A program made the position numbers and the translations under genes. A DNA stretch of 64,000 bases, taken from the NCBI RefSeq assembly GCF_009914755.1, contig NC_060925.1; one strand, given 5' to 3'. The notes beneath the pieces were generated by a model. The model searched no databases and was not told the origin of the DNA. It was given only the letters and a program-made list of their open reading frames with translations. Within the stretch, counting starts at the first letter, position 1. The number at the start of each line of letters is the position of its first letter. Source of the DNA: the human T2T-CHM13v2.0 reference genome, Homo sapiens. Positions 6,413 through 34,239 of this stretch are shown piece after piece.

Positions 6413-10240
<3,828 letters not shown>

Positions 10241-10303
10241 TATGATGTTAGCTGGTGATTTTGCTCGTTAGTTGATGCAGTTTCTTCCTAGTCTCGATGG
10301 TCT

Positions 10304-11320
10304 TTACATTTTGACATGATTTTGCAGCGGCTGGTACCGGTTGTTCCTTTCCATCTTTAGTGGTTCCTTCAGGAGCTCTTTTAGGGCAGGCCTGGTGGTG
10401 ACAAAATCTCTCAGCATTTGCTTGTCTGTAAAGTATTTTATTTCTCCTTCACTTATGAAGCTTAGTTTGGCTGGATATGAAATTCTGGGTTGAAAATTCT
10501 TTTCTTTAAGAATGTTGAATATTGGCCCCCACTCTCTTCTGGCTTGTAGGGTTTCTGCCGAGAGATCAGCCGTTAGTCTGATGGGCTTCCCTTTGAGGGT
10601 AACCCAACCTTTCTCTCTGGCTGCCCTTAACATTTTTTCCTTCATTTCAACTTTGGTGAATCTGACAATTATGTGTCTTGGAGTTGCTCTTCTCGAGGAG
10701 TATCTTTGTGGCATTCTCTGTATTTCCTGAATCTGAACGTTGGCCTGCCTTGCTAGATTGGGGAAGTTCTCCTGGATAATATCCTGCAGAGTGTTTTGCA
10801 ACTTGGTTCCATTCTCCCCATCACTTTCAGGTACACCAATCAGACGTAGATTTGGTCTTTTCACATAGTCCCATATTTCTTGGAGGCTTTGCTCATTTCT
10901 TTTTATTCTTTTTTCTCTAAACTTCCCTTCTTGCTTCATTTCATTCATTTCATCTTCCATTGCTGATACCCTTTCTTCCAGTTGATCGCATCGGCTCCTG
11001 AGGCTTCTGCATTCTTCACGTAGTTCTCGAGCCTTGGTTTTCAGCTCCATCGGCTCCTTTAAGCACTTCTCTGTATTGGTTATTCTAGTTATACATTCTT
11101 CTAAATTTTTTTCAAAGTTTTCAACTTCTTTGCCTTTGGTTTGAATGTCCTCCCGTAGCTCAGAGTAATTTGATCATCTGAAGCCTTCTTCTCTCAGCTC
11201 GTCAAAGTCATTCTCCATCCAGCTTTGTTCCGTTGCTGGTGAGGAACTGCGTTCCTTTGGAGGAGGAGAGACGCTCTGCGTTTTAGATTTTCCAGTTTTT
11301 CTGTTCTGTTTTTTCCCCAT
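10304..11320 (-). pseudogene. L1 ORF1 (338-codon span) with a single premature stop at codon 49
   Basis: ATG GGG AAA AAA CAG at 11320 is in frame with the stop at 10304. TGA at 11176-11174 (CGA>TGA). The 248-aa ORF 10304..11050 is the remainder. Confidence 0.93.
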
Positions 11321-12224
11321 GTTTGTGGTTTTATCTACTTTTGGTCTTTGATGATGGTGGTGTACAGATGGGTTTTCGGTGTGGATGTCCTTTCTGTTTG
11401 TTAGTTTTCCTTCTAACAGACAGGACCCTCAGCTGCAGGTCTGTTGGAATACCCTGCCGTGTGAGGTGTCAGTGTGCTCCTGCTGGGGGGTGCCTCCCAG
11501 TTAGGCTGCTCGTGGGTCAGGGTTCAGCGACCCACTTGAGGAGGCAGTCTGCGGGTTCTCAGATCTCCAGCTGCGTGCTGGGAGAACCACTGCTCTCTTC
11601 AAAGCTGTCAGACAGGGACATTTAAGTCTGCAGAGGTTACTGCTGTCTTTTTGTTTGTCTGTGCCCTGCCCCCAGAGGTGGAGCCTACAGTGGCAGGCAG
11701 GCCTCCTTGAGCTGTGGTGGACTCCACCCAGTTCGAGCTTTCGGGCTGCTTTGTTTACCTAAGCAAGCCTGGGCAATGGCGGGCGCCCCTCCCCCAGCCT
11801 TGCTGCCGCCTTGCAGTTTGATCTCAGACTGCTGTGCTAGCAATCAGCGAGATTCTGTGGGCGTAGGACCCTCCGAGCCAGGTGTGGGATATAGTCTCGT
11901 GGTTCGCCGTTTTTTAAGCCGGTCTGAAAAGCGCAATATTCGGGTGGGAGTGACCCGATTTTCCAGGTGCGTCCGTCACCCCTTTCTTTGACTCGGAAAG
12001 GGAACTCCCTGACCCCTTGCGCTTCCCAGGTGAGGCAATGCCTCGCCCTGCTTCGGCTTGCGCATGGTGCTTGCACCCACTGGCCTGCGCCCACTGTCTG
12101 GGACTCCCTAGTGAGATGAACCCGGTACCTCAGATGGAAATGCGGAAATCACCCGTCTTCTGCGTTGCTCACGCTGGGAGCTGTAGACTGGAGCTGTTCC
12201 TATTCGGCCATCTTGGCTCCTCCT
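11321..12224. promoter_or_regulatory. L1 5' UTR: CpG-rich bidirectional promoter (sense promoter on -, antisense promoter on + towards the FGGY exons), YY1 site intact
   Basis: CpG-dense segment. YY1 motif CAAGATGGCC (- strand) at 12206-12215. Known L1 5' UTR architecture. Confidence 0.85.
11776..11991 (+). CDS. ORF0: L1 antisense ORF0, intact 71 aa (MAGAPPPALLPPCSLISDCCASNQRDSVGVGPSEPGVGYSLVVRRFLSRSEKRNIRVGVTRFSRCVRHPFL)
   Basis: GCAATGG strong Kozak start at 11776, 216 nt to TGA. Matches the recalled primate L1 ORF0 peptide. Internal donors after nt 106 (CAG|GTGTGG) and nt 191 (CAG|GTGCGT). Expression at this locus cannot be shown from sequence. Confidence 0.85.
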   Translation: MAGAPPPALLPPCSLISDCCASNQRDSVGVGPSEPGVGYSLVVRRFLSRSEKRNIRVGVTRFSRCVRHPFL

Positions 12225-13709
12225 CCTGCCACCATCTTTTAAGCCAGCAATGATGGGTCAAATCTTTCTCATGCTTTGAACCACTCCGATTTCTATTTCT
12301 GCTTCATCTCTCCTGTCTTCCTCTTCTACTGTGTCGCTTGACTGACTCCTCTGCCTTTCTCTTCTGCTTTTAAGAGCTCCTGTGATTACTCTGGATCCAA
12401 CCAGAGAATCCAGGATAATCTCCCTATTTTAACGTCATCTGGCTATTAAATAATTCTATCTGCCCAGTTCCTTTAAAGCAGGGCCTCAGTTAGTGTTTAA
12501 TTGAATAACCAGGGTACAGAATATTGAGGGGACATATTTAGGATTCTGCTTACCACATTGTGGTAGCACAGTCATCTGCATTTCTCAAATGTGGATAGGA
12601 TTTAGGCAATGCCAAGTGTTAGCCTAGATTCCAGACACTTACTGACACCTCTAAATATTTTTGGTAAGATGTGTCCCCCTTTCTCTTCCAAGCGGGTGAT
12701 TATCTCAGACTTGTCCTCCAATGTCCCTTTTCCCTCTAGAGGCTTCCTATAAATCTTTCTCTGATCCTCCTCATTGCCTTGTCCATCAGCTCCACCTTCA
12801 TTATTGACTGAGCAAGCAGAGCATTTCTGCCTCTCCATTGTGTTCTGGAAAGCTTTCAGTGAATTCCCCTGAGCCTTGGATACCCCCATCAAGCTCTGAT
12901 GACCATAGAAAAATCTCAGGACTTGTGAATCCCATTTTCTTGTCTTTTGTAATCTTTTGAGATCCCTTGGGAAACTATTTTTAAGCCTTTTTTTTCTTGC
13001 TAATATGTATAAACACTTCAATTCCTTTAACAACTAGGAAGGAAAAAGTGTAATTGCTAATACATTTATTAATAATCTCAACTATTTTAGAACCTATGAA
13101 CCTATAATTTATAATACCAAGGTTTAGAGCAGTCATTTCCACAATTTATTGTGCATTAGGACTGTGGTGAAATGCAAATTGCTGGACCCACACCAAAGGT
13201 TCAGTAAATCTAGAGTAGGATCCCAGGAAACCTACACTCGACTAGGATCCCAGGAAAGAGTTGAGAGAGGTGCCGTAGTTTAGACAGCTACTAAGTTGCA
13301 AGATTTAAGGTGAAGTCCAGGGTGGACAGTAACCATCTGTCTCTTCTTTTTATAGTGAATGGAAGTGTGTAGGTTGATAAGTACTAAGGCTTCCTCAAGG
13401 AGTTCTTGCAAGAGTCCCCCCACTCTGTGTCCCTGGGCACTCAGGGGCTTCTCCATACTCCTGCATGCCTGTACCTTTAACATTATGGTCCCAGCGCTGA
13501 TGAGCAACTTCTGCCCTGGCTTCCCTACACTGAACAGTCACTAGTCTCCAGTGCCCCTCATTAATATCCTCAGTAGTACCCACAGCATGGTGAAGGAGAT
13601 ACGTTACTCCCATATCCCAGTAAATGAATGGGATTGAGCCTTTCATGCAATTCGAGAGAAAGAGAATGAACACTTATTAAGAGAAACGGAAAGAAAATGA
13701 ATACTTATT

Positions 13710-14101
13710 TTACTTTTGTAAGTTTACTTTACGTTCTGGGATACATGTGAAGAACGTGCAGGTTTGTTAAATAGGTATACATGTGCCATGGTGGTTTGCT
13801 GCACCTATCAACCCGTCATCTAGGTTTTCAGCCCCACATACATTAGGTATTTCTCCTAATGCTCTCCCTCCCCTCCACCCCACCCCACCACAGGCCCCAG
13901 TGTGTGATGTTCCCCTCCCTGTGTCCATGTGTTCTCATTGTTCAACTCCCACTTATGAGTGAGAACATGTGGTGTTTGGTTTTCTGTTCCTGTTAGTTTG
14001 CTGAGGATGATGGTTTCCAGATTCATCCATGTCCCTGCAAAGGACATGATCTCATTCTTTTTTTATGGCTGTGTAGTAGTCCATGGTGTATATGTGCCAC
14101 A
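13710..14101 (-). mobile_element. 5'-truncated L1 3' end (L1PA8-like)
   Basis: L1 3' UTR and ORF2 C-terminus (MSFAGTWMNLETIILSKL) on the minus strand. Confidence 0.85.
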
Positions 14102-15923
14102 TTAAGAAAATGAACATTTAAATGCCACCTCTTTGCACAGTTGGCACCATAAGAGTTACAGGAGTATGTAGCTCTTGTAGACTCAGTACAGCTTACTGAA
14201 AAAAGTAATTCACTTTGCAAATGATACCTCATGTAATCCTCACAAAAATAATTTGAGGTATTATCCCTTTTTTTGTGGATGAAAAAATTGAGCTCATAGA
14301 TGTTACAAAATTCATATAGTGTCATGCAGCTAAATTAGAGAAAATGTCAATATTTAAACCCAGGTGCCTTCCTCTAAAGCTCATTGTTTCAATTGGCATA
14401 CACCGCTAACCTCGAAAATCCCAATATTTACATAAGTGCTTTATATTCATAATCTAGGAGGTTAAAATTAGGCAATGCAGTTATTTGCATTGTTTTGGCC
14501 ATTATATATAGTTTTCATGCACCCTAATATTAATTGTAAGAGCTTTCTCTTATAGTTCTCTTCATTACACAATATCCAAAATAGATAAAATGTGCTTACC
14601 CTTGCAACTCTCACATCGGGCTTCCCTACACATTTGTCTGTCTCGCCCAAACATTCAAAATAGGCACAGGCACATCAATAAACACACTCCTTCTACTCAT
14701 GCTTCCTCTCCACTTCCTCTTGTTGGAACCATTCAGCCTCCAGCTAGGGAATCAGTTCATCTGGCCTATCCTAGCCTTTTCAGCCATTTCAAAGCTGTGC
14801 CTCTCCCAGGACTTCTTTGGCACTCCCAGGGCACTGTCACCACCTCCCTTCGAAGACAGCTCCCCGAGGGTCCTTTGTAGCCTCTCAAGCAGTCTTCATG
14901 GCACTCCTTGCAAAGTTCCGTCATGGGTTGACTGGGCTGAGGTCCCTGGTATTTGAGAGAAAATTAAATGGACTTAACGATCATCTGCATATCAGATGAG
15001 ATGTCAAGGAAACAAGGACCTCAGACCACAGTGTCTTTGCACTTGAGAGATAAATATCTTTCACTAAGTCACATTTCAATACCATGGCTCTAGTGTTAGT
15101 GGTGAGGGAATACTGGAAACGGTTGTATGAGAATTGTGTTTGTGGCTTCCCTTTTGATACTGAATACCTTCTATATTATGATCCATGCAAGAAATCTCTT
15201 CTAGAATTTCTTCCCAGGAATAATTTTGTCTCCCTTCAAGGATAGCTATGTTTTATTTATCAGAAAAAAAGCTATTTCACCCTCATGTGTCCCTTTTTGC
15301 CATAGCTGCTAGCAAGCTCAGGATTTAAATTTAGTGCTCAATTACATTGATTATATCATTCTCAGTTTCTGGGGAAAAAAATTATCCTCCCGTTTCTGCT
15401 CTATGATTTCTGAGCTCTGGAGGCACTGGAAATTTAGAGAAGGGTCCGTGATATCTTTTTGCATGAATACCAATGCTTTTTGGAAATTCTCGTGGATATC
15501 TGCTGGGGATTAAGGAAGTTAAATCCAGCTATGTCACACCCTTTCTTCTCTCTTATGGATTCTTACTAATTGAGAAGGATATCAGAACCCATTACATTAT
15601 CAGTATTATTATACAAAGCACTGGGGTTCCTAATAAATATTGTTAGGGGAATGCATCTTATATACAAAGTCATATTTTACCCCCACTCCCAACAAAAATC
15701 ATCCAAATCTGGTCTTCAGGAGTGGGTCAGCCACACAGAGGATCATGGCTTAATCCTCTTCCCATTGATGACCAGAGAGAGGAAGCCAAAGGGAGGCAGC
15801 CTCCTGGACAGGCTCTAGAACAGTGCACTAAGCCATGGCCCAGCAACTTCCCTAGGAGACCCAATAGCAGAGGTGCTGTTGAGGCCAGGCCAGTACAGGA
15901 GAGACAGAGAAACCGTGTGTGAA

Positions 15924-16107
15924 TGGTGTTCATGACTAGTGATCATTGCCAGGACCACCGCATGCTAGCATGGTGCAGGCAGCTCGCAGAAAGTGTTCAG
16001 CTCAGGGATGTTCAGCTCATGACTGGTGTTCATGACTAGTGATCATTGCCAGGACCACTGCATGCCAGCATGGTGCAGGCAGCTCACAGAAAGTGTTCCA
16101 CTCAGGG
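15924..16107. repeat. Direct tandem duplication, two 84-bp copies with a 100-bp period
   Basis: 15924-16007 vs 16024-16107, 5 mismatches by eye, 16-bp linker. Confidence 0.93.
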
Positions 16108-16519
16108 GGCTATGACCAGGCTGAAATCCTGCTTACTCTGCACCTTTTTATAATTCATACTCCCAGATGGGGTGCCTTTTTCAAACTCAAGACAAAGGCT
16201 CTATATGAGGTACAGGGACCCTTCCTTTTACCCTATTCTCATAAAAGCCACTTCTCTGATGAGAAAGGGTAAGTTTAGGGATGGTGGAGGGCAGGTGGCA
16301 ACATGGAGCAAGTAACTAAAAGTGTTCTTCCAGTGTTCTTTTCTCTTGGGGCATGGTCTCCTCCTCTCTGATTGTGTGAGGAGCTGAGGCAGTAAACTTT
16401 GTCCACCTGTACTTGTAGAATTTAACAAAGAAGGATAGGACATAAGGAGAGAAAGTGGTGTCTAAAAGGTGAAAAGAAGCATTGAATTGTCACTGGTTCA
16501 TAGTTCACAGTGCTGAGTG

Positions 16520-17801
<1,282 letters not shown>

Positions 17802-18665
17802 TCAGCTCCCTTATTTTGATGCAAACCGCATGTCCATACCTGGTTGAGCTCAGGACAACACACACCATAGGAACTGAGTAAATGAATGTTGGTGAATTAA
17901 TTTTATAATGTGATAATCTAAAGTGAACTATGGTGCTGATGCCCACAAAAGTTGGGCTCGGCTTGAAGAACCCAGCAGCCCTCACCCTTTAGAAATGTCC
18001 CAAGAGAACACCTTGATGAGTGGGAGACATGAAAGCAGGACTGTGAGCAAGTCCTGATGGCATACAAATCCGGCATCCTGTTCAGTTCTGGACTCTCTCA
18101 GAGATTGACATACTCCATATAAACATCCGATTCTGATTGACTTTAATGGGATCCCCTTGCAACCCACAGATTCTAAGTTATCCCCTAGTAGGTATAATAT
18201 TTGTAGGAGACATATTATATTACCCTGGATTGGACACTGAATGCTGTTACACTGAAGTCTGACAGTAGCAGAACTCAAAACAAGATCATCTTGTACTAGA
18301 ATGCCACTGTTAGTGTTGATTTCTTGTAAGCCACAGAAAATAGGTATTTGTAAGAAAAGAAAATGTTTTAAAATAAAAAGTATTTAATTATCGTCTAAGA
18401 AATATCAAACATAATCTTCCTGTGGTATTTGTTTTGTTTTTGTTTAAGGTCAGGGTATTTTCTCTTGGGGAGGAAGGGATAGTTTTTCCCAGGTCTGGAG
18501 ATTAAACAACTTAATAGGCATTTCACGTTCCGCTCACAAAAAGGGGATTTGCATATGAACTTGTTTCGGCAAGAAAACACATCTGAACGTATTTCATGGG
18601 AACTATCTTTATCCACGGCAGCTTCTTTTGACCATCTTCTTCTTTTCTTCCCTTCATGCCTGCAG

Positions 18666-18740
18666 GTCACCGGATTGAAACTGTCTCAGGACCTTGATGA
18701 TCTTGCCATTCTCTACCTGGCCACAGTTCAAGCCATTGCT
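18666..18740 (+). CDS. FGGY: FGGY internal coding exon (75 nt, phase 0/0): VTGLKLSQDLDDLAILYLATVQAIA
   Basis: Pyrimidine tract plus CTGCAG| acceptor at 18665 and GCT|GTAAGA donor at 18741. The peptide is recognised as human FGGY C-terminal domain and joins in frame to the next exon. Confidence 0.96.
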
Positions 18741-20139
18741 GTAAGATACTGTAATGCCATTTTTAAAGAGACTTAGAGCCATCAGTATACTCTAGGCCAC
18801 TGGCTCCCCAAGATACAGCACATGCTTTTGTGACAGAGATTCTTAATTAAAAGATTGTTTGCAAAAAAGAGATTCTTGTATGTCTGGAAGGAAGTGTTGA
18901 TGAAAGGCCTCACCTGCTTTAACTAATAACCTCACATAACAAAAAGCTGAAAGGAGTTAAAATCTGTGAAGATTATACTTGTCATTTATCTAATTTGTCT
19001 TCTAAATTTAATTAAATAGAAGCAAGCAAACAGATGCTATGTATGCTTGCATTAAGAAAAGTTGTTAAGAATGTCTGATTTATAAAATACATTATATTGT
19101 TCACTTTGCAAAAGGATTCATGATAGGGGTCCTTTAAATAGTAAGCTTCCTTAGAACATGAAAGTGTTTGTTTTTAGATAATTAGCTGCTTAAGTGAGGT
19201 TAGGATGATTAGGGAGGAAGAGGGGAATTTAAATCTGAAATGTTAGGAGTTTCTACACTAAAGATAAATCAAAAATGGAAATGAAATCCTAAAAGCTTAA
19301 CCATTGTCTAAAGAATCTTCTTATCTAGAGGTGGCTATGGATGGGCTACAAGAGGGTTCTAATCCTGAAATCACATCCAGAAGGTTGTGTGTGTGCATAT
19401 ATTACAAAGTGCATTTTAGGAGAGTAGATCATGGTGTTCGGGGTCTCACAGCAGGTATGTAACCGAAATTAAGTTAATCCAGTGAGGCTTAGCCACTTCT
19501 GAAAAGAGAATAGGAATTAACAGAAAGGAAAAATCAGTTTATCTAATTTTAATTCAAAATTTATTTTTCAGTAACACCTGTTTTAAGCAAATATGTTTAA
19601 TGCTATACGTACATATATGATATTCAATTATTCTGTTTCTTCACACAACTGTTTTCATAACTTTATTCCTTTAAACTATATGTATATTTATTCATACCAC
19701 CAACAGAAGTGCTTTTTTAATGCTCAGATTTGTCCATGCACCATGTATGTGCAATAAAGAATGGAACCTCCCAGATAGTAATAATACTAATACTGAAGGG
19801 ATATAACTTCTTTAATGCAACTACATAGAAGTATGGAATCAGTCAACTTGATTAAACAGCCCTTTTAGATTCTACACTAGTTTTACTATATCTTCCTGAA
19901 GCAATTTTCTTATTGGTCTTAATAGCTTGGCCAATTCAGTGAAATCAGTCAAATATCTTTATGCATGGAAACTTGGTCAAAAGCACACAATTCTGACATC
20001 TGTAAAAATGTAGGAAATGAACAGTAAGATGAAAATAGAGAAAAAAAGTGTGCATCAGTAGTAAAGATAATTATTTAGCTGTCCTGTTTTATAATAATAA
20101 TGATGATTATGATGATAATAATGAGTGAATTAAGAGGGT

Positions 20140-20465
<326 letters not shown>

Positions 20466-20485
20466 GAGTTAAGAGGTATTTTATA

Positions 20486-20886
<401 letters not shown>

Positions 20887-20991
20887 CTAAGGCTCTGTGT
20901 GATTAATTAACTTGTGCAGGGCCATATAGCTTGTGGCAGAGGTGGGATTTGAACCCCCAGCATTCTAAAACAAAATTAGACATGTGAAGTA

Positions 20992-21335
20992 CAGTCATCT
21001 GCTACATAACGTTTTGGTTAACGAGGGACTTCCTATATGATGGTGGTCCTATAAGATTATGATACTGTATGTTTACTGTACCTTTTCTATGTTTAGATAT
21101 GTTCAGATACACAAATATTTACCATTGTGGTACAGTTGCCTACAGTATTCAGTACAATACCATGCCGTATAAGTTTGTAGCCCAGGTGCAATAGGCCATA
21201 CTATATATAGCCTAGGTATGTAGTAGGCTATACCATCTAGGTTTGTGGAAGTACACTCTATGATGTTTGCATGACAAAATCACCTAACAATGCATTTCTC
21301 ACAATGTATTCCCATGGTTAAAGGACATTTGACTG
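20992..21335. mobile_element. Tigger3a/MER7-type TcMar-Tigger MITE
   Basis: Termini CAGTCA...TGACTG flanked by TA on both sides. Internal text resembles Tigger3. Confidence 0.8.
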
Positions 21336-24080
21336 TATTGAGGAACTTTTATTTTCAGATTTGTTAATGTTATTGTATAAAAGAGTCATAGAATGAATAG
21401 CTTATATTGAAATGAATAATCTTGGAAAATCAGAGTGGTGTGATATTCCCCCTTTTGAGCACATGCTAAGAGGAGGACATGAAGGATGAGGCCAAACAGG
21501 AGGGACCAAGGGGCACCATCACATAGTGGTAATGACAGTTACCTTTCGTCAGACACGACTGTGTGCCAGGCACCAAAGACAGTGCCTTGCCTACTGGTAG
21601 CTTAACACTGTAACCCTGTAAGTAGGTGGGTTTGTTCTCATTTTACAGACAAGGGGAGGACCATTTGCCGAGGTCAAACAGCTAGAGTATGGTAGTTGGA
21701 ATCTGAACCTTTCTCCATCTCACTCCCAGGCTTCTGCTCTTTCCACTTTACCATGCTGCATTTTCCTTTGATCTGTTTGTAAAAGCTACATGGGTGAAAT
21801 AAGCTTTCAGATATTCCTAAGAATCGTTTTTACTTAATATATATTAGAAAATATCATTAATTTGGCCAGGATTGTCTCACAGAGGTTCCTTTCCTGGTAA
21901 GAGTACTGCAGCAGAAGTCCAGAAATGTATAAATGAGGTTAAACTTAATGCGGGCAGGAGAGAGGAAGAAAAAAAGCCAGCTACATTTTCTCAAGTACCA
22001 CACACTTGGAAAATCAATCTTGTATTTAATGGGCCGTACATGTATTAAAAGCTATCATATTTATTCTGTCCATTGTCTTAATGACCTTTATAATACCATG
22101 AAAGGAAGGCATTTTAAGACAGAGATTTTTTTCAATAAGCCTTTTTTGTGGAGTCAAGTGAATTGTGAGGGGTTCAGTCTGTTTTGCAAATGTATCTGGA
22201 TGTGCTGATCTTTTAGGCAAAAAAATGTGCATTTTAATGAGGTATTCTGATAACAGATATTTTCCCATAATGTTCAACTTGGGAAAAAAAAATGTTGTTT
22301 CATTAGCCCTGAATATTGCCGGAGCACTTATTTGTTGTCGGTCAACTGAAAGTTAAGCAAATTTCTCTCTATATATAGTCATATCTTTGGGTGCTGTTTT
22401 GTAGGGGTGAAATGAAATTAAAGAGGATTGTAATCAAGTTAACTTGGGACTGTGCAAAACCCTCCATGAAGTAAAATTCTCTCTTGATCATGCTTAATTG
22501 AAAGACCTGTCAACCACCCGGTTTATCCATAGCCTGTTCATCTATAGTTTTCTTTGCAGAACAGACCCTTAAAAGGTACTATTTGCATTTGAAGTCTCTT
22601 GATTTGCATTCGGTTCTGTACATTCCCAGTGGAATAGCCTAATTTTAATTTAAATTTCTCTGTGAAAACATTTTTTCCAGAAAGGTGAGCACAAAATCAT
22701 TTTCACACAAAGCCCTTTGGTGGGGCATTTCAGTAGGGTGGAGTATTACACAGATTGGAGTCTGGGACACCGAAAGGGAAGGTCCTCTAAGGAACCGCCA
22801 GACTGAGTGGGAAATTCCAGCCGACAATACCACATGGGGGAGAGACAGGCTGTCTGTCACAGCCCCTCTCGAGGGAGTGCCTCTCATTCGGATCATTTCT
22901 TTCCTTTTCCCAGGAAATGTGCTTTGTTTTATTCTTGTCTCAGGCCTGCTAATCGCAAGCCCCTAGGTCCCTGGTTTTAGAAATATCAAAGATACCAGTT
23001 TTTCCTGACATTTCCATACAAATTAGGAGACAGCAATTCTCCCATTCCATACAGACTGTATTGCTTAGTCAAATTATATATCTCCTAAGTGGAGAAAACA
23101 ATATGCAGGTTTCACATTTGCCTTAAGATTAGAGATGCTATTAAAGTGCATAGCAGAGTGCCTAGCATATAGTTGATAACCAGAAGAACTCTCCTTGTAT
23201 GCACCTTTCGTGAGCTGGACACTTCTACAAGTTTTACCTTTGCTGCCTACAGCAGCAGACTTGTATGGTAGGTATTACTAGATTTCATCAAGCCTAAGAC
23301 CACATTTTTAATTTTTTTGCATGTTGACATTTCTGACAATCTATAGAATTTTTAACTAAATGAATATGATACTATTATTCCCATGGCAAAAAAAAAAATG
23401 GCAATTGAGTTATAGAAAGGTTAAGGTACAAGAAATATGTGAAATGCCTAAATGCCAGCCTGGGTTTTTTGAATTCAAAACTCATGCTCTTAGCTACTAC
23501 AATTCATGCCGTTAGAGCAGACTGGGGTTGCCCAGAATCCACAGGCATCAAATGATCCATGATGGACTTCAGGCATCTGTAGACCTCCTGAAATTATTTA
23601 TAGTACTATTTTGTATGTGACTTTTTTTTTCTGGGGAGGTCAGTAGGTTTTGGCATATTCTCAAGGGGGTTCATGACCCCCCAAAAAGCTTAACAAAGAA
23701 CATCTGGGAATAATCAGCCCTAGTTAGTATGTAGGATCTGGCCTTATATGGCACAACATGTTTGAATTTTTTTAAACACACTACATCTGTAGATTGTTTA
23801 TGGAGGCCCAGGTTTTACCTAATCCATATTTTTACCAGATTCATGAATAGCTTCAACAAACCCTCAAGACCTCTGGGCTAGAACTGCTGTGCCTTTTGCT
23901 CCTGAACTGCCCCTGTCCCTCATGATTTATGCCAAACCAATTAGGATTTCATGTCCTATGGTTCCCAGATCACCCTCTGACCACTCCTGTCCCCAGGTTC
24001 CCCCATCCCCTGGGGTGACAGCTCCCCAGACAGCCTTGTCAAAGGAGGCTCCATTTGCCCTCTACCCCCAACCCCCCTAA

Positions 24081-24420
<340 letters not shown>

Positions 24421-25730
24421 CAAAACCCTATTCCTTACCTTGGCTAAACTCCGATTCTTCTTGCCCTCAGCTAAAACACCTCCTCTCCCTCACTACATTC
24501 CTAGGTTTCAACCTGAACAATACTGTCACACTTTCACTAAAAACCAAGATATTGGCTCATGCCTTCTTCTTGGTGGCTGTGCCATCTGTGGAGACACATT
24601 GTCCTCCCAGATCCTTGACTTTCTTATCTCTTCTGACTTCTCTTCCCTCCTTTTTAGCAATTCACTCCCAGGTCTACACTTAGGACTGTGACATCTCCCC
24701 AGATTGCTCAATCTCTAAACATTTCAAAGACTTGCTACCCACCAAAAAATCCTCTTCCTCTATTTTTTCTGGAGCCCCTTTCTCAAACATCACCATGTGG
24801 CTGCCCCCTTATGGCCACATCACAGTTCATCTTTTTGTTTTTAGTCCTTATCCCAAATAAATTTTGATTTTCGAACTCTAGTTTTTGAACTTTCAAGTAA
24901 ATTAAGATTTTTCAGATGTTCAACTCTCCTATCTAAAACTGAAGAATTCTACATTGAGATTCACTTCCATAACTCTAAGGCAATAATGGTTTTTACTGAG
25001 TTTAATGAACTTAGCAAGACAGACATGAGGATAATGCATATTAGGAAGATATTAATGCACAAGAACTGAGACACAAGGCTGAATTGAAAATATGGTGAAG
25101 CCCTGAAACAACCAGGGAATGGATTTGGCTCAGAAGTCTCCTTTTAGAGAACCACTACCTGGTTTCAGGCAATAGCAGCGGTAATTTTAGCCCTTAGCCA
25201 CCCTGAAGCCTTGGATCTCACCTTCTTTATGCAGTTAGAGCCCTCTTTCCATGATTCTGCTGCTGGATTTTTTGGTGCTTTTTCTAAGGAAAAAGCCTTT
25301 AGTTCCCATTTAGTAAAGGAAGACTGACCAAGATACCATTGACTCTGTTTCAGAGTACTATTGCAATCACTGCTAATACAGGGCCTGGGCTATAGTAGAC
25401 ACTCATTAAATATCTGTTTGAATGAACTATGTTACCATTAACTGTGTTGACATTGTCAACTGTTTTTGTCAGTGTTGTGTAACTACTGATAGAAGCAAAT
25501 GGTGTAATTAAGAGGGTTTTGGAATCAGTCAGGCCCAACTTGAAATTCCCACTCTGCGATTTAAGTAACTGTGTGATCATAGACAACATAATCTCTGTGA
25601 GTCTCAGCTTTCTGAGATAGTGTATGTAGAGCTTAGTACAGTGTCTAGCACTGAGTAGACATTTAAGAAGTGTTCCCTAGTGTTTACTTTTGTGACTATA
25701 CTGATGCTATCTTCTGCTTTTCCTTTCAAG

Positions 25731-25851
25731 TTGGGGACTCGCTTCATTATAGAAGCCATGGAGGCAGCAGGGCACTCAATCAGTACTCTTTTCCTATGTG
25801 GAGGCCTCAGCAAGAATCCCCTTTTTGTGCAAATGCATGCGGACATTACTG
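25731..25851 (+). CDS. FGGY: FGGY internal coding exon (121 nt, phase 0/1): [40 protein letters not shown](G)
   Basis: CTTTTCCTTTCAAG| acceptor and CTG|GTAAGT donor. Contains the FGGY-family C-domain motif (CGGLSKN..QxxAD.TG). Confidence 0.97.
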
Positions 25852-27084
25852 GTAAGTCTGGGAAAGAGGAGAGAAGGTCACTTTTTGGCTTGGCAGCAAA
25901 TGGGCATGGCCAAGTTCTGGGTGAAGTGAGAATAGGAGGATATATGCGGTATGCCAGATTATTAGAATAATCCTGAAGTCTTTATATTCACAATGGAGAA
26001 AGTGACTTCTATGACGTCTTTATATGCATGATGGAGAAAGTGATTTCTGTGTATATCCAACCATTGAATAATGGTGAGAAATAACACGAGAGAAGTTGGC
26101 CAGGACTAGATCTTAATTCAAGCATTTACACAACAGTTTTGAATACCTCTTCTGATCCACACATTGTGGAGAATATTGAAGATACGAAGATGAATAGGAC
26201 ATGATCCTTGCTCCCCACCACCCAGGAACTCACAGTCTATTGAGGAAGGGAGACAGCAAACAGGCATATTAAAGATAGTATGGCAAAAGCTTGGCGTGAG
26301 AAAAGTACGGGGTATCATGGAAACATAGTGGGGCACCTTGTCTGGTTTGGGACCTAATGGCAGCTCAGGGCGTGTGGTCTGGAAGAAGTGATAAGAAAGC
26401 TGTCTTGAAGAAAGAATGCAGAGGCTGGATGCTATAGGATCTGTGGGTATGATTGCAGACTGGGAATTTGAGCCCTAAGACCCTGAGATCCTGTGATTCC
26501 TTCTCAGCTCATCAGAATCAGGGATCATAATAGAGATGCAGGGAATCACAAATAATGGGCTGAGCTCTTTGTGATATCAGCAGACAGTGGGGGAGAAGGA
26601 TCCTTAGCAAGCCCCTAGGACCCAAGGAAGGGGCCCCATTGGCAGGAGGCTTTCTGTTGTCGCAGAGAGTGGCCTGGACCTCTGTCTCTCTGGACCTGAT
26701 ACCCTCACCCCTTTTACTCCTTGCCCCTCTAGTGTCTCCTGGGGACTGGAGACCCATTCTCTCCCAGGACCCATCACTGGGTGGCCAGGTACCACCAGGG
26801 CAGGGCAAGGGGAGGGAAAGTGGGGGAGGGTTGTACCCATCCCATAGTCCCAACTCCAGCCTGATAAGAGCCCACTTGACCCTACCTCCATTTATCATTA
26901 TCCTTTGCTGTCCCTCATCCCCTACTTTCTTACCTCTGACTTCTGGCCAGGTCAAAGTCCCTGCCCCATTATATCCTCCATCCCCCTCTAAGCCACACAG
27001 ATTCCTGCAGATGAGAGCCTTGTCTAACACGATGGACGTAACTGATCTTTGCACATCATGAGATGAAACTAAGTAAGTCACTTA

Positions 27085-27546
<462 letters not shown>

Positions 27547-27961
27547 TCACGCTGTAGACACTTAATCCTCCCATACCACCAAAGGTAGAAATCGGTGCCC
27601 CCATCTTACAGACAAGCAAGTTGATGGGTGGGTAGGTGAATTAAATTGGCTATCTAAAGTCAAACAGCCAGTATGGGGCAGGACCAATATTGTAACTGTG
27701 GTGTGTCGGGGCCCACCGTCCCTTTGTACTGTACTGCTGACCCAGGTTTCTTGACTTTTCTGCCAAGTTTGTAACCAGTTGATGATGACGCCACTTTCCT
27801 GAGATGTCCAAAACCCTATAGAAGTGGGCCGTTCAAAGCAGAAGGAGGAAAGACATAAAAAGAGCCCAGATTGCCTTATAATTGTCCTCAGGAGAAAAAC
27901 CATAACATTTTATCTAAAAATCAGCTGGCTAGTTCAGATAACATTCAAGCTTAAAATTTGA

Positions 27962-28156
<195 letters not shown>

Positions 28157-29669
28157 TGATAGCCAAAAAACTTCCTATCTGGATGCAAGAGGAAAGATGA
28201 AAGTCAGCTTTGGAGAACACAGTACTCTAGAAAATGGGAAACAGGGCCTCCCAGAGCAGAACAGCTAGCTGTGAGTGACCCCGGCACTGACTCCGCGCTG
28301 CAGCCCTGGACTTTGTGAAAATGGGTCATCTTCCAGGCCCTACATCCCTGGGCTGACTCAGAAGCACGGCGGGGAGTGCAGCGGCTTCACAGAAAGTTCT
28401 GCTTTGGAAACTGTTCTCCTCTAGGCTGTTGAATGAAAAGGCTGTTAATCGTTATTTGGATTCCGATTGAAACTGGACCTTTTGTCTCTAACTATGGACC
28501 AGTTACAGTTCCAGACAAAGAGACCTTTTATTTAGCCTGGAATTCCTCTGCCTTTGGAAGCCTGTGACTGACAAGTGATGGCAAAGTGCATCTGCCTTTG
28601 AATGCTTTGGGTTCTGCTAAACTCATTAATGCATCAGATAAAATAGTTCACATTCCAGCCAAAGCTGCCCTCTTCCTCTCCTTCACCCAGGACTCAGAGA
28701 AAAGAACACATTTGCATTTGTCCCTGTAAAAGGCACGTACACAAGCAGCCAGTATAGAGGTAGTGTCATTGGTGCCTTTAAACATTGTATTGCTCTAGTT
28801 TTCCTACAAAGACAGTTAGGGAGGACTGTAGACCTGGAACATGATTCTCAGAAATGCATGTGAAAAACACATTCGAATTTGGGAGATTTTTTTGGAGATA
28901 GTGTGGAACAGTGGAAAAAGCAGATCAGCTCTGTGACTTTGGGCAAGTTACTTTACCTCTCTGAGCCTCAGTTCCCTCTTCTGAAACAAACAAACCAAAA
29001 AACATTATCATCTCCCTCATGTAGATCACTGCTGAGGAATAAATGCTTGCGAGTTTGTGAGCATCAAACTCTGTGCCTAGTCCAAGTAGGTGATCAGTAA
29101 ATGTCAATTCTCTTATTCCATCTAGGAAGCCCCATGCCAAAAAGAAAGAGGGGCATTTGAGGGAAAAAAAAAGCAGCTTATTATTTTGAAAGTGAATCTT
29201 TGCCATGTTGAGAACAGCCTGCTCTGTACAAGCAGGGAGAGCGGGGCCTTGCCAGCTTGGGAAATGCTGTCTACATGAGGAGGAAGAACCTCCTTGTACC
29301 CTGGTCATTTGGTTAACTGTGGTTTCAAGAAATACTTGGTATGTACTAAGTAATTGTTAAGTTTCCCCCACTGACTTGGGACTAAATGTTCCTTCTTCTA
29401 AGTTTTATTTTTTAGTACTGGTAGTTTCAGTAGGGGTTTCCCTCTTCTGGTCTTACTCATTATTTTAATTATTTGTTCTTTCATTTATTCACTCAAAAGC
29501 ATTCTCTGTGCACACCAGTGTGCCAAGCCCTGAGGTTGGCACAGGGATGCTAAGAAGAACAGTAATGTCCAGCCAAGAGGTTCTTTATAAAACACAGAAA
29601 AAGTGCCCTTGGTCTTATGACCAATATCCAGAGTGAGTAGAGTGGGGACCCAGAGGACAAAATGTGTCG

Positions 29670-30052
29670 GTGTCAGTCAGGTCCAGGCAGGGAACAGATA
29701 CACACTCCAGTTAGGTTAACCGGAGGGAAGTTGAATAGTCAGTGTACAGAGCTGTGGGCAGGGTGCTGGAAGCCCAGACAACCAAGAAGTACCTTGGGAT
29801 ACTAACAGTGTTTCCACCCCTGGGCTCACAAGGGTGAGGGTAGGGAGCAGGCAATCTGAGCCTGGTGGGATGTGTGAAGAGGGCAGCCCAGCAGAAGCTT
29901 AGCCAAGGATGAAACCAGAGGGCAGGGGCCCACAGCTGTGATCCCCACTGGCCAGTCTCCCAGGCTCAGAGTAGGTGGAGGGAGGAAGGGAAGAGGTGGG
30001 ATTGGTCTTAGAGGCAAATGGAAGCAGTGGATTGATTTCACCCTGGGTAACA
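29670..30052. mobile_element. Ancient ERVL-type solo LTR (family uncertain)
   Basis: Begins TGTCAGTCAGGTCCAGGCAGGGAACAGATACACACTC. Related text occurs at ~40820-41210. Confidence 0.45.
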
Positions 30053-32483
30053 GGTGTGAGGAGAGACTTCAGAAGTAAGGTAAACTTTAAGAATAACAAC
30101 TAATGCTAATTTAGTGCTTTCTCTAAGCCAAGCACCATTTTAAGAGCCTTATTATAATAGCAGTTTTAATTCTCACAGCAACTCTATGAGATAGGCGGAA
30201 TTTTAACCCCATTTTTCAGATGAGAAAGCTGAGGCACGGAAAGATTAGGTATCTTGCCTAGGATCACACAGCTAAGTCAGTGGGGAAGCCAGGATTCAAA
30301 CCCTGGCAGTCTGGGTTCAGAGCACTTTGGGCAGCAACTTGAGAGCTGATAGGGGATTCACCAGGTTCACTCACATCTCTGGTTCGCAAGGGGAGGGGCC
30401 TGTGAGTAGTTCCTCCCTGCTCACAACTCAGGGAGCTTTTGGCAGGGTAGGAAGGCCCGGGAAGTGAATGGTGTTTGGAGGCACTGTCTTCAAAAACGTC
30501 CCAGGTCCATAGAGAAGGCTTGATGGTCATAGTCGCACACCCATCTGTATCATTCCTAGGATTCTTCAACGGCTTGCAGTGCTCTCTCCTGCTGGTGTCA
30601 GCACAGCCCTGTAGTGTGGCCTGGCATCTGTCCTTCCCCTCTGGATGGTTGATGGGAACCTTTATTGTCCCTTCCCCACTTATCCAGTTTTTAGTCCAGG
30701 TCTAGTACATGCATAGAGGCTTCACTTGCCATCTACCTGAATTCTAACAGTAGCAGCCATCATTTCTCCAGGGCTTACTGTAGGCCAGGAAATATGCTAA
30801 GCACCAAGTGTGTGCCCTCTCATTAAGCCTCACAACACACCTGTGTGGTACATCTTATCATCATCCCCATTTTACATTTGGGATGATCCCCATTTGCATT
30901 TGGGAACCAAGGCTTAAAGAGTGTAAGTGACTTACTGGACACAGAGCTAGTGGAACCAGGAAATAAACTCAGGTCTGAGCTTCTCCCAGCATTCCCACCC
31001 CACCTGACACCATGTTGGCAATGTCTTAAGTCCTGGCCCAGTTGAGAGCTGGTATTCCTAAATTCTCTGGGGTGTCTGTGGGAATTTACTCCCCTGCCCT
31101 TTTTCTCTGGGTAGCTGGAGGAAAGAATTGAGTGGGGAAGTAATGGGATGTAGAGAGAGTGTCTTCTCAGACAAGATAGGAAAAGAAATCTAGGCTTTGG
31201 GAAAATAACTCTTATGGCTTGAGTAGAAGACAGTTTTTACACCACAAGTTTACCTCTGTAAAGTTTGCTGCCATCTCCCGATTAGCAGACTAATCTATAC
31301 ATTATAGACCTAAGAATCCTAAATTATTTCTGTTAATCTTAAACCTACCATGAACCCTCAACCTCTGGGCATTGGCATATGGAGGGCTCCTCCCTGCCTG
31401 GTGGACTCCTGCTCACCCTTCAGATGCCTGTTTAAGCCTCATCTCCACCGTAATCTGTGATGACCGCTACCCCAGAAATGTAAGTGACTCATCATTCAGT
31501 CACTTACCATGTGCTAGATACTGGTCTAAATGCCAGGGATTCCGCAGTAGTCAAAACAGAGTCCCTACCCTCAAGTAGCTTAAGTTTTTGGAGGGGAGAC
31601 AGACATTAAACAAGATAAGTAAGTAAAATACAATGTTGGAAGGTGGGATGAAGCAGTTAAGGGGGTAAGGAGTGTTGAGGGAAGTTGTAATTTTAAATCT
31701 GATGGCCAGGGAAAGCTCAGTAGGAAGGTGATGTTTGCGGAAACACTTGAAGGATGGGCCGGCAATTAGCATGTGGGCATCTAGGAGGAAGTGTTCCAGA
31801 CAGGGAACAGCATGGGTAAGGGCCCCGAGGCACACTCAGGAAGCAGCAAGGAGGCCAGGACTACGTGGCTGGAAGGAGAAGAGGAGGATATCAGAGAGGG
31901 AGAAGTGGGGCCAGATCTGGGAGGGAGAGCCCCTTGTCAGCCACTGTAAGGGCTGTGGCATGCACCCTGAGAGAGGGGAGAAGCCCCTGGAGGGATGAAT
32001 CACACCCTCTCTTGCTATCTCCTTTCCCTTAGCACATCTCAGTTAGAGAACCAACCCCCTCCGTAGCCTTCATCTCTCTCATCCATTTCCCTCTGAAACC
32101 TGAATAGCAGGGCACAGTCCGATTCATCTCAGTATTCCCTCGGCCAGCAGAGCGCTTAATAAACATCAGTGGATCTGAACTTGAATCAAATGGCAGGTAG
32201 CAGCTTGCAGAAGCCTGAAAAACCTGGGCACTGAGGTCTCGTGAGTTGATATATATGGTGTTGGTTCCCTTGGGCTCTTGGCTACTGCACCAGCAGGCAC
32301 AGGCAGTGAAATCTTTTAGAACCAAATAATCCCAAGGAATAAAGAAGGGAGGACTGCAGGGAGTCGGGCGGGGGGCCTGCTGCTGCCCTGATGTCAGGTG
32401 TTTTTGCCACTGCGGCTGCTTGTTGGCTCCTCACACTCCCCTGGCTCTGCTCCCTAACCAAGGTGTGGCCTTGTCCTGCGCAG

Positions 32484-32578
32484 GCATGCCTGTGGTCCTG
32501 TCGCAAGAGGTGGAGTCCGTTCTTGTGGGTGCTGCTGTTCTGGGTGCCTGTGCCTCAGGGGATTTCGCTTCTGTACAG
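32484..32578 (+). CDS. FGGY: FGGY internal coding exon (95 nt, phase 1/0): (G)[31 protein letters not shown]
   Basis: TTGTCCTGCGCAG| acceptor and CAG|GTATGT donor. Phase matches the preceding exon, and the E...GAA motif of FGGY kinases is present. Confidence 0.97.
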
Positions 32579-34239
32579 GTATGTGAAGACCAGGGGGTGG
32601 GCTGTGGCTCCTCCCCTGTCTGAGGCCATCCTTCCTCTTGACAGCAGCTCGCATTTTACAAAATACACACAGGATATAATTAAGAAATGATAGGTTCCAG
32701 CCAGGGAAAGCACAAACACTTCTAGCCTCAGACATATTTATTGCAGTTTTCATTTGACTTGGCCTCGGTTCGTGTTGGTCGTTCTGTTTTTCAGTTGTTT
32801 TTTTTCTTTCTTCTTTAAAATACCTTTTAAATTATTCCTTTTAAATTTCCCCTTGACCACTTTTCTTTGAGCACATGAAACAGGTAAGGCTCAAAACTTC
32901 AGTGTTTCATGTGTATTTCAGATTTTTATTTGCTTATGTCAACCTCACCATTTTCTAAATACCTTGAAGGCCTCTATCAACAAGAGACACAAATGAAACT
33001 GTCAGTATGAAATAAAAAAGGAATTAAAAGGGAAAATAAGGAACAAAGATATAGGAAGAAGGAAACAATTTGGTGGCTGTGATTAAACACATAATTTGGC
33101 TCAGAGCTTCCTGGCAGGCAAGACAAAAAAGAACACATGATAAATTGCATAATTCTTACTTTCAAAAAGAGGAAACATACTAGTTTCTGGTGAGAGGGAA
33201 AACTTTTCCTCTCACCAAATTGCGAAAGACTTTGCACACATGGGGCTTTGTGGAGAGGTTTTGAGTGCTAAAATAATACAAGGTAAACAATGAATGTGGT
33301 ATGGAAGCTAAGAGCATACAGGCTCTGGCATTAGACCACCTGGGCTCAAATCCTAGCTTGATTACCTACCAGCTCTTGTGGCCTAAACAGTCTTCTCTGT
33401 ACTTCCACTCCTTTATCTGTAATAGTAATTGACAGCGCATCGTGAGTTCTGTGTGTCAAGCATGCTCATTTAGTCCCTGCAATAGCTCTATTATCCCCAT
33501 TTTATAGTTGAGGAACCTGAGGCATAAAGAAGTTAAATAACTTGGCCTAAATGAAACAGCTAGTAAATGCCAGAATCAAGAAGTCTGGCTCCCACTTCTC
33601 AACTGAACGTTCAAGAGATATTTGTTCAGCAAAGCAGCAGAGTCCAAATGACTTGCCCATGGTCTCAAGCTTAGGACTACAAGCCAGGTATCTAGTAGCT
33701 CAGGAATTAGAGCTTTGTTTATTGTGAACCTCTTATGTTCCAGACACTATGCTAGGTGCTTTTTGTATAATCTTCCTAATACCTATAACAATGCTTCATG
33801 AGCCACAGAGATTGGGCCATAGAGATCCAAAATTTAAGGGTACACTATTGGGAACAGACAGATGTAAAAGTGTGATGCTGTTTGTACTGCATTTTGGAAA
33901 ATGTGGTACACTACACACTATCCAAGCCTCTGAAACTAATGACTGTGAAATCTCCCTCACAAGGAATTAAATCCACTCATGAATTCTTGTGGATTCTGAG
34001 TGAGTCTTTAAACAAAGGTGGTATAGTTCAGTTCTCGACTTTTTCTGGATAGTCTCGTCCTTTCTCAAAAATAGCACATGGAGATATTTGTTGTTGAAAT
34101 ATCAATGAATTGTCAATTATTATTTTAGTGTATCAGCTGACGGAGATGTTCTCACAATTAAATATCTTGCCCTTCCTGCGGCAAATTATAATAGTTAAAA
34201 CAGGGGGGATGCTTACTAAGGTTCTGCAGAGGTTACCCT

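What the first reader, a model, noticed from the sequence alone, without database searches (positions are those of the whole stretch)
11776..32578. L1 antisense-promoter/ORF0 unit aimed at the FGGY 3' exons: predicted in-frame ORF0-FGGY fusion
Seen: the antisense L1 has broken ORF1 and ORF2 but an intact 71-aa ORF0 on the FGGY strand, with donors SD1 (exon end 11881, phase 1), SD2 (11966, phase 2) and a third CAG|GTGAGG (12029). The FGGY exon at 32484 begins in phase 1, so SD1->32484 reads MAGAPPPALL...[26 protein letters not shown]... in the native FGGY frame. Splicing to the nearest exon (18666) gives short products instead (SD1: +GHRIETVSGP*; SD2: +RSPD*). Established: L1 antisense promoters drive chimeric transcripts and ORF0-exon fusions when demethylated. 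From memory (unverified), an L1-FGGY chimeric RNA was reported in lung squamous carcinoma. Inference: this fixed intronic L1PA2, rather than a new somatic insertion, is the likely source of such a transcript.
Basis: partly seen in the sequence, partly recalled or inferred. Interest (0 to 1): 0.82.

Follow-up and report, generated by a model that had tools for sequence, protein, structure and literature searches.

The report
Known L1 antisense promoter feeding FGGY
An old, dead LINE-1 element sitting backwards in an FGGY intron carries an intact antisense promoter, ORF0 and splice donors, and it is the already published source of the tumour "L1-FGGY" RNA; the proposed in-frame ORF0-FGGY fusion protein is correct arithmetic but has no support.

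Summary

None of this is distinctive. ORF0 is intact in 14 of 16 related full-length copies. Only 1 of 6 coding donor/exon pairs is in frame, against about 2 expected by chance.

The transcript is already in print:
- Criscione 2016 lists two L1PA2-to-FGGY ESTs.
- Sun 2022 describes intronic L1 antisense-promoter transcription into FGGY "exon 13". Their qPCR primers map to 11807-11826 and to the exon at 18666-18740.
- TEITbase places a start site in this L1 in 1735 TCGA tumours and predicts its transcripts as "Non-coding, Truncated", not chimeric.

Splicing into 18666 stops ORF0 after 10 or 4 extra codons. The in-frame fusion needs two constitutive exons skipped. It would keep only FGGY_C profile positions 175-197 of 198.

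Verdict: real, ordinary, already known.

The parts
6193..12224 (-). Full-length LINE-1 of L1PA2 age, poly(A) tail included (T run 6189-6210 on +). Retrotransposition-dead.
   Evidence: ORF map. ORF1 piece matches human L1 ORF1p, PDB 2yko, E 2e-137. 97-98% identical over 6 kb to the other copies scored (29 of 18720 candidates scored). Called L1PA2 in Criscione 2016 Table S1.
6177..6192 (.). Target-site duplication, left copy (16 nt shared; the first 2-3 nt may belong to the L1 5' end).
   Evidence: Longest shared flank string; read.
12225..12240 (.). Target-site duplication, right copy.
   Evidence: read.
11321..12224 (-). L1 5' UTR (about 905 nt), a bidirectional promoter. L1 nt 1-455 keeps 27 CpG (observed/expected 0.68).
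   Evidence: ORF1 ATG at 11320. CpG counts. That the ASP lies within the first 600 nt of the 5' UTR in L1HS/L1PA2-8 comes from Criscione 2016.
11776..11991 (+). ORF0, 71 codons, intact, good start context.
   Evidence: Its position agrees with the ORF0 start codon at L1 nt ~451 (Garza 2023 passage).
11879..11887 (+). SD1 donor CAG|GTGTGG, exon end 11881, phase 1.
11964..11972 (+). SD2 donor CAG|GTGCGT, exon end 11966, phase 2.
12027..12035 (+). Third donor CAG|GTGAGG, exon end 12029, 38 nt past the ORF0 stop.
11807..11826 (+). Site of the published L1-FGGY qPCR forward primer (inside ORF0, upstream of SD1).
   Evidence: Sun 2022 Table S23. One exact match in the window, none expected by chance.
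18706..18725 (-). Site of the published L1-FGGY qPCR reverse primer.
   Evidence: One exact match.
18666..18740 (+). First FGGY exon downstream of the L1 (phase 0), the acceptor of the published chimeric RNA by primer position. ORF0 reading stops at 18695-18697 (SD1) or 18676-18678 (SD2).
25731..25851 (+). FGGY exon (phase 0), FGGY_C profile positions 133-173 of 198. Holds an in-frame ATG at 25758 (GAAGCCATGG).
32484..32578 (+). FGGY exon that needs 1 nt from upstream, FGGY_C positions 175-197 of 198. The only exon in frame with SD1.

Best explanation
A LINE-1 of L1PA2 age inserted by ordinary target-primed reverse transcription into an FGGY intron, antisense to the gene, and has since lost ORF1 and ORF2. 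Its 5' UTR still holds the family's standard antisense module: a CpG-rich bidirectional promoter, ORF0 and three GT donors, all facing the FGGY 3' exons.

When the promoter is derepressed (placenta, many tumours), RNA starts in the L1. It splices from an L1 donor into the next constitutive FGGY exon (18666-18740) and runs on through 25731 and 32484. This is the published L1-FGGY chimeric transcript.

Read from ORF0, these RNAs end after 45, 67 or 71 codons, with exon junctions downstream, so they are short-peptide or NMD-prone RNAs. At most they could give a 5'-truncated FGGY from the in-frame ATG at 25758.

Shown: the anatomy, frames and primer sites, and the published ESTs and start site at this place. 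Inferred: donor usage, control by methylation, NMD, and what is translated.
For: Anatomy.

Only one candidate L1. From 34 kb upstream to exon 18666 this is the only L1 5' UTR facing the exon. The only other one (window -30007..-31010) points the other way and is 82.5% identical. An upstream FGGY_C exon at C1:59486247-59486387 shows that the scanned span contains the whole intron.

Print:
[quoted passage not shown] In one cohort 52 of 109 LUSC tumours were positive.
- Their primers map to 11807-11826 (+) and 18706-18725 (-).
- Criscione 2016 Table S1 lists ESTs BE566986 (bladder carcinoma line) and R64632 (normal placenta). The source is L1PA2 on the minus strand, each has a single alignment, and both are marked as previously identified in literature or C-GATE.
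[quoted passage not shown] It is expressed in 1735 TCGA tumours (of 10,079 analysed), 34 adjacent samples and 95 GTEx samples.

Mapping. By my arithmetic from published gene and exon ends, that start site falls near window 11825 and the R64632 5' end near 11912.
Against: - I saw no read-level data. Donor usage and the full exon chain of L1-FGGY were not visible: Sun 2022 Fig. S2A is an image, Tables S1-S19 are not held, and Zhang 2019 is not held.
- 'Exon 13' is the authors' numbering. In NM_018291.5 the window exons may be 12-14, because the last coding exon starts in phase 2 and so cannot follow 32578 directly. If their exon 13 were 25731, the reverse primer in 18666 would be unexplained.
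- EST BE566986 starts near 8694, inside the L1 body and not in the 5' UTR.
- TEITbase labels the 5' end L1HS_5end while Criscione says L1PA2.
- My hg19/hg38-to-window mapping is arithmetic, not a liftover. It reproduces the gene end to within 2 nt.
- Control by methylation was not testable here.
Confidence: 0.9

Rival explanations
1. Some L1-started RNAs splice SD1 (11881) directly to 32484, skipping two exons. They are translated from the ORF0 ATG into an ORF0(1-35)-Gly-FGGY C-terminal fusion protein.
For: The frame arithmetic is right. ORF0 has a good start context and no upstream ATG. ORF0-exon fusions exist in general: 57 of about 3200 genic ORF0 loci, as cited by Criscione 2016 from Denli 2015.
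Against: - It needs two constitutive exons with good acceptors to be skipped.
- The published assay includes exon 18666.
- TEITbase lists no chimeric coding class for this start site.
- R64632 starts past SD1.
- Both estimated 5' ends (about 11825 and 11912) lie downstream of the ORF0 ATG at 11776, although such ends are usually incomplete.
- The in-frame match is no more than chance gives (1 of 6 pairs).
- The product would hold only FGGY_C positions 175-197 of 198 plus the tail, so no kinase.
Confidence: 0.06
2. L1-FGGY arises from recurrent somatic L1 retrotransposition into FGGY. This is the reading of Zhang 2019 as repeated in later reviews.
For: Reviews of 2020, 2025 and 2026 describe it so. 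Reverse-transcriptase inhibitors were reported to lower L1-FGGY.
Against: - The L1 is in a non-tumour reference assembly. It has target-site duplications, seven or more ORF breaks, and only 96-98% identity to relatives.
- An L1 is catalogued at what maps, by my coordinate arithmetic, to the same place in hg19 and hg38.
- A normal placental EST exists.
- The same group later attributed the RNA to the intronic L1 antisense promoter.
- Both primer sites lie in germline DNA, in the right order and orientation.
Confidence: 0.03
3. The L1-started RNA is a working mRNA for a 5'-truncated FGGY, translated from the in-frame ATG at 25758 (or at 25833 or 32486). This truncated protein, not the RNA or ORF0, is what matters.
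For: TEITbase predicts 'Truncated' for some transcripts of this start site. If transcription starts downstream of 11776 there is no ATG left in the L1 part (none in 11779-12029). The first ATG in the FGGY frame is then 25758, in the context GAAGCCATGG.
Against: - An out-of-frame ATG at 18697 comes first.
- The product would lack all of FGGY_N and about two thirds of FGGY_C.
- The prediction is computational (CPC2/BLAST), with no protein evidence that I saw.
Confidence: 0.15
4. The L1 part of the published chimeric reads comes from another L1 copy, through mis-mapping of a repeat or trans-splicing, and not from this element.
For: Sun 2022 admit that short reads cannot fix the L1 of origin. The 216-nt ORF0 stretch has at least 2681 look-alike candidates in the genome; the 40 that were scored are 98-100% identical.
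Against: Cis-splicing into FGGY needs an upstream, correctly oriented L1 5' UTR in the same intron, and this is the only one. The ESTs have single alignments that start in this element. TEITbase places the start site here.
Confidence: 0.04

Closest known systems
L1-FGGY chimeric transcript (Zhang 2019, not held; Sun 2022, PMC9288060; TEITbase TE_2502; Criscione 2016 ESTs BE566986 and R64632)
   Same: Same locus, same strand logic, same L1 5' UTR. The published primers land at 11807-11826 and 18706-18725, and the published start site and EST starts map into this L1.
   Different: Nothing of substance: this is that object.
L1 antisense-promoter chimeric transcripts in general (L1-MET and others; Speek 2001, Nigumann 2002, Cruickshanks and Tufarelli 2009, as cited)
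   Same: An intronic full-length young L1, antisense to its host gene. Start within the first 600 nt of the 5' UTR, splicing from L1 donors to a downstream host exon, mostly in tumours, placenta and testis.
   Different: No difference in kind. Here the host part is the 3' quarter of a carbohydrate-kinase gene, so no functional host protein can result.
ORF0-exon fusion proteins (Denli 2015; seen only as cited)
   Same: Intact ORF0 with donors inside it (SD1, SD2).
   Different: Splicing to the nearest exon gives stops after 10 or 4 codons. The only in-frame partner lies two exons further on. I could not see whether FGGY is among Denli's 57 fusions.

Membership tests
L1 antisense-promoter chimeric transcript unit | Full-length young primate L1 (L1HS/L1PA2-8) with its 5' UTR present | tested here: met
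   6032 nt between the target-site duplications, with a 5' UTR of about 905 nt. ORF1p match. 96-98% identical to relatives.
L1 antisense-promoter chimeric transcript unit | L1 antisense to the host gene and upstream of host exons | tested here: met
   L1 ORFs lie on the minus strand and FGGY exons on the plus strand downstream.
L1 antisense-promoter chimeric transcript unit | GT donors on the antisense strand of the 5' UTR | tested here: met
   Three CAG|GT sites, shared with 15-16 of 16 relatives.
L1 antisense-promoter chimeric transcript unit | Transcripts that start in the L1 and join a host exon | tested here: met
   Taken from print and mapped here: ESTs, TEITbase start site, qPCR primers. 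No raw reads were seen.
L1 antisense-promoter chimeric transcript unit | Activity tied to loss of DNA methylation | not testable with these tools
   Only CpG retention could be measured (27 CpG, observed/expected 0.68 in L1 nt 1-455). The link to hypomethylation is reported in a review of Zhang 2019.
ORF0-host exon fusion protein | Intact ORF0 with a usable start codon | tested here: met
   71 codons, context tgggcaATGG, no upstream ATG.
ORF0-host exon fusion protein | Transcription start upstream of the ORF0 ATG | tested here: inconclusive
   The published start site maps near 11825 and the EST 5' end near 11912. Both are downstream of 11776, but both methods under-' ends.
ORF0-host exon fusion protein | The donor inside ORF0 joins the observed host exon in frame, without an early stop | tested here: not met
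   For the exon in the published assay (18666), SD1 gives a stop after 10 codons and SD2 after 4. Only SD1->32484 is in frame, and that junction is unobserved.
ORF0-host exon fusion protein | Junction reads or peptide evidence | not testable with these tools
   No RNA-seq or proteome data are available here. TEITbase gives no chimeric coding class. Denli 2015 is not held.
L1PA2 subfamily | Subfamily call by a repeat annotator | tested here: inconclusive
   L1PA2 in Criscione 2016 Table S1. The Dfam-based label of the 5' end in TEITbase is L1HS_5end. No annotator was run here.
L1PA2 subfamily | Age and divergence beyond human-specific L1 | tested here: met
   At most 98% identity to any of the other full-length copies scored, and 96.0-97.8% over the 5'-most 801 nt. 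At least seven ORF breaks. The 3' UTR reads GAG after GATGAC; that this is the non-Ta state is recalled, not checked.
Somatic L1 insertion into FGGY | The element is absent from germline or reference DNA | tested here: not met
   It is present in this reference assembly with target-site duplications. An L1 is catalogued at hg19 and hg38 coordinates that map to it by my arithmetic.

The most novel reading that the evidence does not exclude
In tumours with this L1 derepressed (1735 of 10,079 TCGA tumours in TEITbase), a minor isoform joins 11881 to 32484 and is translated from the ORF0 ATG. This would give a recurrent, tumour-enriched chimeric peptide across the ORF0/FGGY junction that could serve as a shared neoantigen.
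Probability: 0.05. Interest if true: 0.4.

Novelty: already known. Interest (0 to 1): 0.15.

Why it matters
L1-FGGY is used as a lung-cancer marker and as an argument for treating tumours with reverse-transcriptase inhibitors. Reviews up to 2026 still call it a somatic insertion.

The base-level picture here shows that a resident, dead, germline L1 with a standard antisense module accounts for the published assay. An RNA from this element needs promoter derepression, not retrotransposition. The authors themselves moved to this reading in 2022.

The fusion-protein idea would matter only as a possible shared tumour antigen. The evidence for it is frame arithmetic alone.

Tried and rejected
- Zhang 2019 and Denli 2015 are not held, so the original junction description and the list of 57 ORF0 fusions were not seen.
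- Sun 2022 supplement: only 11,238 characters of a docx are held. Fig. S2A (the junction sequence) is an image, and Tables S1-S19 are not there.
- A search for 'Primate-specific ORF0'/SD1/SD2 gave only unrelated papers.
- FLJ10986 with LINE-1: 0 papers.
- Pinson 2022 supplements: 0 mentions of FGGY in 3 files.
- Hancks and Kazazian 2016 did not hold the 3' UTR trinucleotide diagnostic, so its meaning stays recalled.
- FGGY mentions in PMC13040219, PMC10903961 and PMC12807651 are reference-list entries only.
- The FGGY transcript in the GTEx paper starts in an L2b, not in this L1.
- The FGGY exon between 64000 and about 120950 was not located, so exon numbers and the full length of the hypothetical fusion stay open.
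- No splice-site scoring model was available. Donors were only compared with the consensus by eye.
- ORF0 and FGGY co-occur in 4 papers of the library. In the 3 whose passages I read, the two are not linked. PMC12453358 was not read.


Full report
**Observation**

The window holds a full-length LINE-1 on the minus strand, antisense to FGGY.
- A 22-nt T run (the poly(A) tail) lies at 6189-6210. An identical 16-nt string flanks the element at 6177-6192 and 12225-12240, as expected of a target-site duplication.
- ORF1 starts at 11320 and meets an in-frame TGA at 11176-11174 after 49 codons. The rest matches human L1 ORF1p (PDB 2yko, E 2e-137).
- ORF2 starts at 10240. It is cut by in-frame stops at 9087-9085 and 7507-7505 and by at least four frame changes. 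The longest ATG-started piece is 317 aa.
- On the plus strand, ORF0 occupies 11776-11991 (71 codons, context tgggcaATGG). There is no ATG on that strand in 11500-11775.
- GT donors follow 11881 (phase 1), 11966 (phase 2) and 12029 (38 nt past the ORF0 stop).
- The FGGY exons start in phases 0 (18666), 0 (25731) and 1 (32484).

**Is it more than chance?**

No.
- Only 30 of 639 possible single substitutions would destroy ORF0.
- One search returned 16 full-length relatives by similarity over the whole 6 kb. Of these, 14 keep ATG plus 71 codons. The SD1, SD2 and SD3 GTs are kept in 16, 15 and 16 copies.
- The 216-nt ORF0 stretch has at least 2681 candidate look-alikes in this genome.
- Criscione 2016, citing Denli 2015, gives about 3200 genic ORF0 loci.
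- Of the six pairs of a coding donor with a window exon, one is in frame. Chance gives two.

**What it is**

The element is an ordinary old L1.
- It is at most 98% identical to any of the other full-length copies scored (29 of 18720 candidates scored). Over the 5'-most 801 nt it is 96.0-97.8% identical to 16 relatives.
- Criscione 2016 Table S1 calls it L1PA2. TEITbase, annotated with Dfam, labels the 5' end L1HS_5end.
- The 3' UTR reads GAG after GATGAC. That this is the non-Ta state is my recollection.
- L1 nt 1-455 keeps 27 CpG at observed/expected 0.68, against 0.20 for the whole window. The promoter therefore still looks like a methylation target. This is inference.

**Is it the only candidate source?**

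An FGGY_C-coding exon lies at C1:59486247-59486387, that is window -33754..-33614. The intron that ends at 18666 is therefore contained in the span I scanned. A blastn of this 5' UTR against window -33999..19000 found one other L1 5' UTR, at -30007..-31010. It is in the opposite orientation and 82.5% identical. The forward primer has a single match in the whole window.

**What is in print**

- Sun et al. 2022 (PMC9288060; outline, passages, section 8 and the held part of the supplement read). [quoted passage not shown] 52 of 109 tumours of one cohort were positive. The qPCR primers in Table S23 match the window exactly, once each: 11807-11826 (+), inside ORF0 upstream of SD1, and 18706-18725 (-), inside exon 18666-18740.
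- Criscione et al. 2016 (PMC4908685; passages and Table S1 read). They list two ESTs for FGGY with source L1PA2 on the minus strand: BE566986 (bladder carcinoma cell line) and R64632 (normal placenta). [quoted passage not shown] Neither was seen in their PacBio data, and neither was manually validated.
- TEITbase (PMC13184619; passages and Table S3 part 26 read). Entry TE_2502 is L1HS_5end, hg38 chr1(+):59653378, FGGY, chimeric, with coding prediction 'Non-coding, Truncated' and tumour-specific score 15.05. It is expressed in 1735 TCGA tumours of 10,079 analysed, 34 adjacent samples and 95 GTEx samples.

**Mapping of published coordinates**

This is arithmetic, not a liftover. I set the end of R64632 (hg19 60139806) equal to exon end 32578. 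That puts the hg19 gene end at window 121174, against 121176 annotated. With this offset, R64632 starts near 11912 and BE566986 near 8694, and both end in exon 32484-32578. Using the hg19 and hg38 gene ends, the TEITbase start site falls near 11825.

**Mechanism**

Derepression of the L1 5' UTR starts plus-strand RNA in the L1. A donor in the 5' UTR joins the next constitutive acceptor (18666, tcttcccttcatgcctgcag|G), and the normal FGGY splicing chain follows.

From the ORF0 ATG the reading ends as follows:
- at 18695-18697 via SD1 (45 codons);
- at 18676-18678 via SD2 (67 codons);
- at the ORF0 stop via the third donor (71 codons).

Exon junctions lie further downstream in each case, so these RNAs should be targets of nonsense-mediated decay. 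This is inference from the general rule.

If transcription starts downstream of 11776, as both estimated 5' ends suggest, the L1 part holds no ATG at all (none in 11779-12029). The first ATG is then the out-of-frame one at 18697, and the first in the FGGY frame is 25758. This fits TEITbase's 'Non-coding, Truncated'.

**The proposed fusion**

SD1->32484 is in frame, but several things count against it.
- It needs exons 18666 and 25731 to be skipped.
- The published assay contains exon 18666.
- R64632 starts past SD1.
- TEITbase lists no chimeric coding class for this start site.
- The product would carry only FGGY_C profile positions 175-197 of 198 plus the tail, with no FGGY_N. It could not be a kinase.

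I found no paper that links ORF0 with FGGY. Four papers hold both words. In the three whose passages I read they are unrelated.

**Open points**

- Exon numbering. The last coding exon (stop near 121030) starts in phase 2, while 32578 ends in phase 0. At least one more coding exon therefore lies beyond the window, and the window exons may be 12-14 of NM_018291.5. The authors' 'exon 13' may follow another transcript. If it meant 25731, SD1 would read on out of frame and SD2 would stop after 7 codons. That is still not the proposed fusion.
- BE566986 starts inside the L1 body, which I did not explain.
- Zhang 2019, Denli 2015, Sun's Fig. S2A and Sun's Tables S1-S19 were not visible and may hold the exact junction.

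**Somatic insertion versus resident element**

Reviews of 2020, 2025 and 2026 still describe L1-FGGY as a somatic insertion. The evidence against that reading:
- the element is present, with target-site duplications and decayed ORFs, in a non-tumour reference assembly;
- an L1 is catalogued at hg19 and hg38 coordinates that map to it by my arithmetic;
- a normal placental EST starts in it.

The resident-element reading is the one that Sun 2022 adopted.

**Verdict**

The source inference is right but already published. The fusion protein is unsupported. The finding is ordinary and already known.

Noticed in passing
window about 8694 (inside the L1 ORF2 region, + strand): EST BE566986 (bladder carcinoma line, Criscione 2016 Table S1) maps by my arithmetic to a start about 3.1 kb upstream of the 5' UTR start site, inside the L1 body, and ends in exon 32484-32578. 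This could be a second antisense start, or exonisation of L1 body sequence.
   Followed up: no
window about 32133 and about 31554 (RefSeq enhancer 31958-32485): A GTEx-based study lists FGGY transcript ENST00000471169.5 as starting in an L2b at hg38 chr1:59673686. TEITbase has an L2a_3end start at hg38 59673107. By arithmetic these fall just upstream of exon 32484, in or near the annotated enhancer. Other repeat-borne starts therefore also feed the FGGY 3' exons.
   Followed up: partly
window -30007..-31010 (L001, C1:59488990-59489993): A second L1 5' UTR lies in the upstream part of the scanned span, in the same orientation as FGGY and 82.5% identical to this one. Its antisense promoter would point away from the 3' exons.
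   Followed up: no
window 12038-12253 (+): A second 71-codon ATG ORF runs from the L1 5' end into the flank. It has no known counterpart and is probably chance.
   Followed up: no
L005, window about 120950-121030: The last FGGY coding exon starts in phase 2, so one more coding exon must lie between 64000 and about 120950. Exon numbers in the L1-FGGY papers may therefore not follow NM_018291.5.
   Followed up: partly
literature: Reviews from 2020 to 2026 still describe L1-FGGY as a recurrent somatic L1 insertion. The originating group reassigned it to the antisense promoter of an intronic L1 in 2022.
   Followed up: yes
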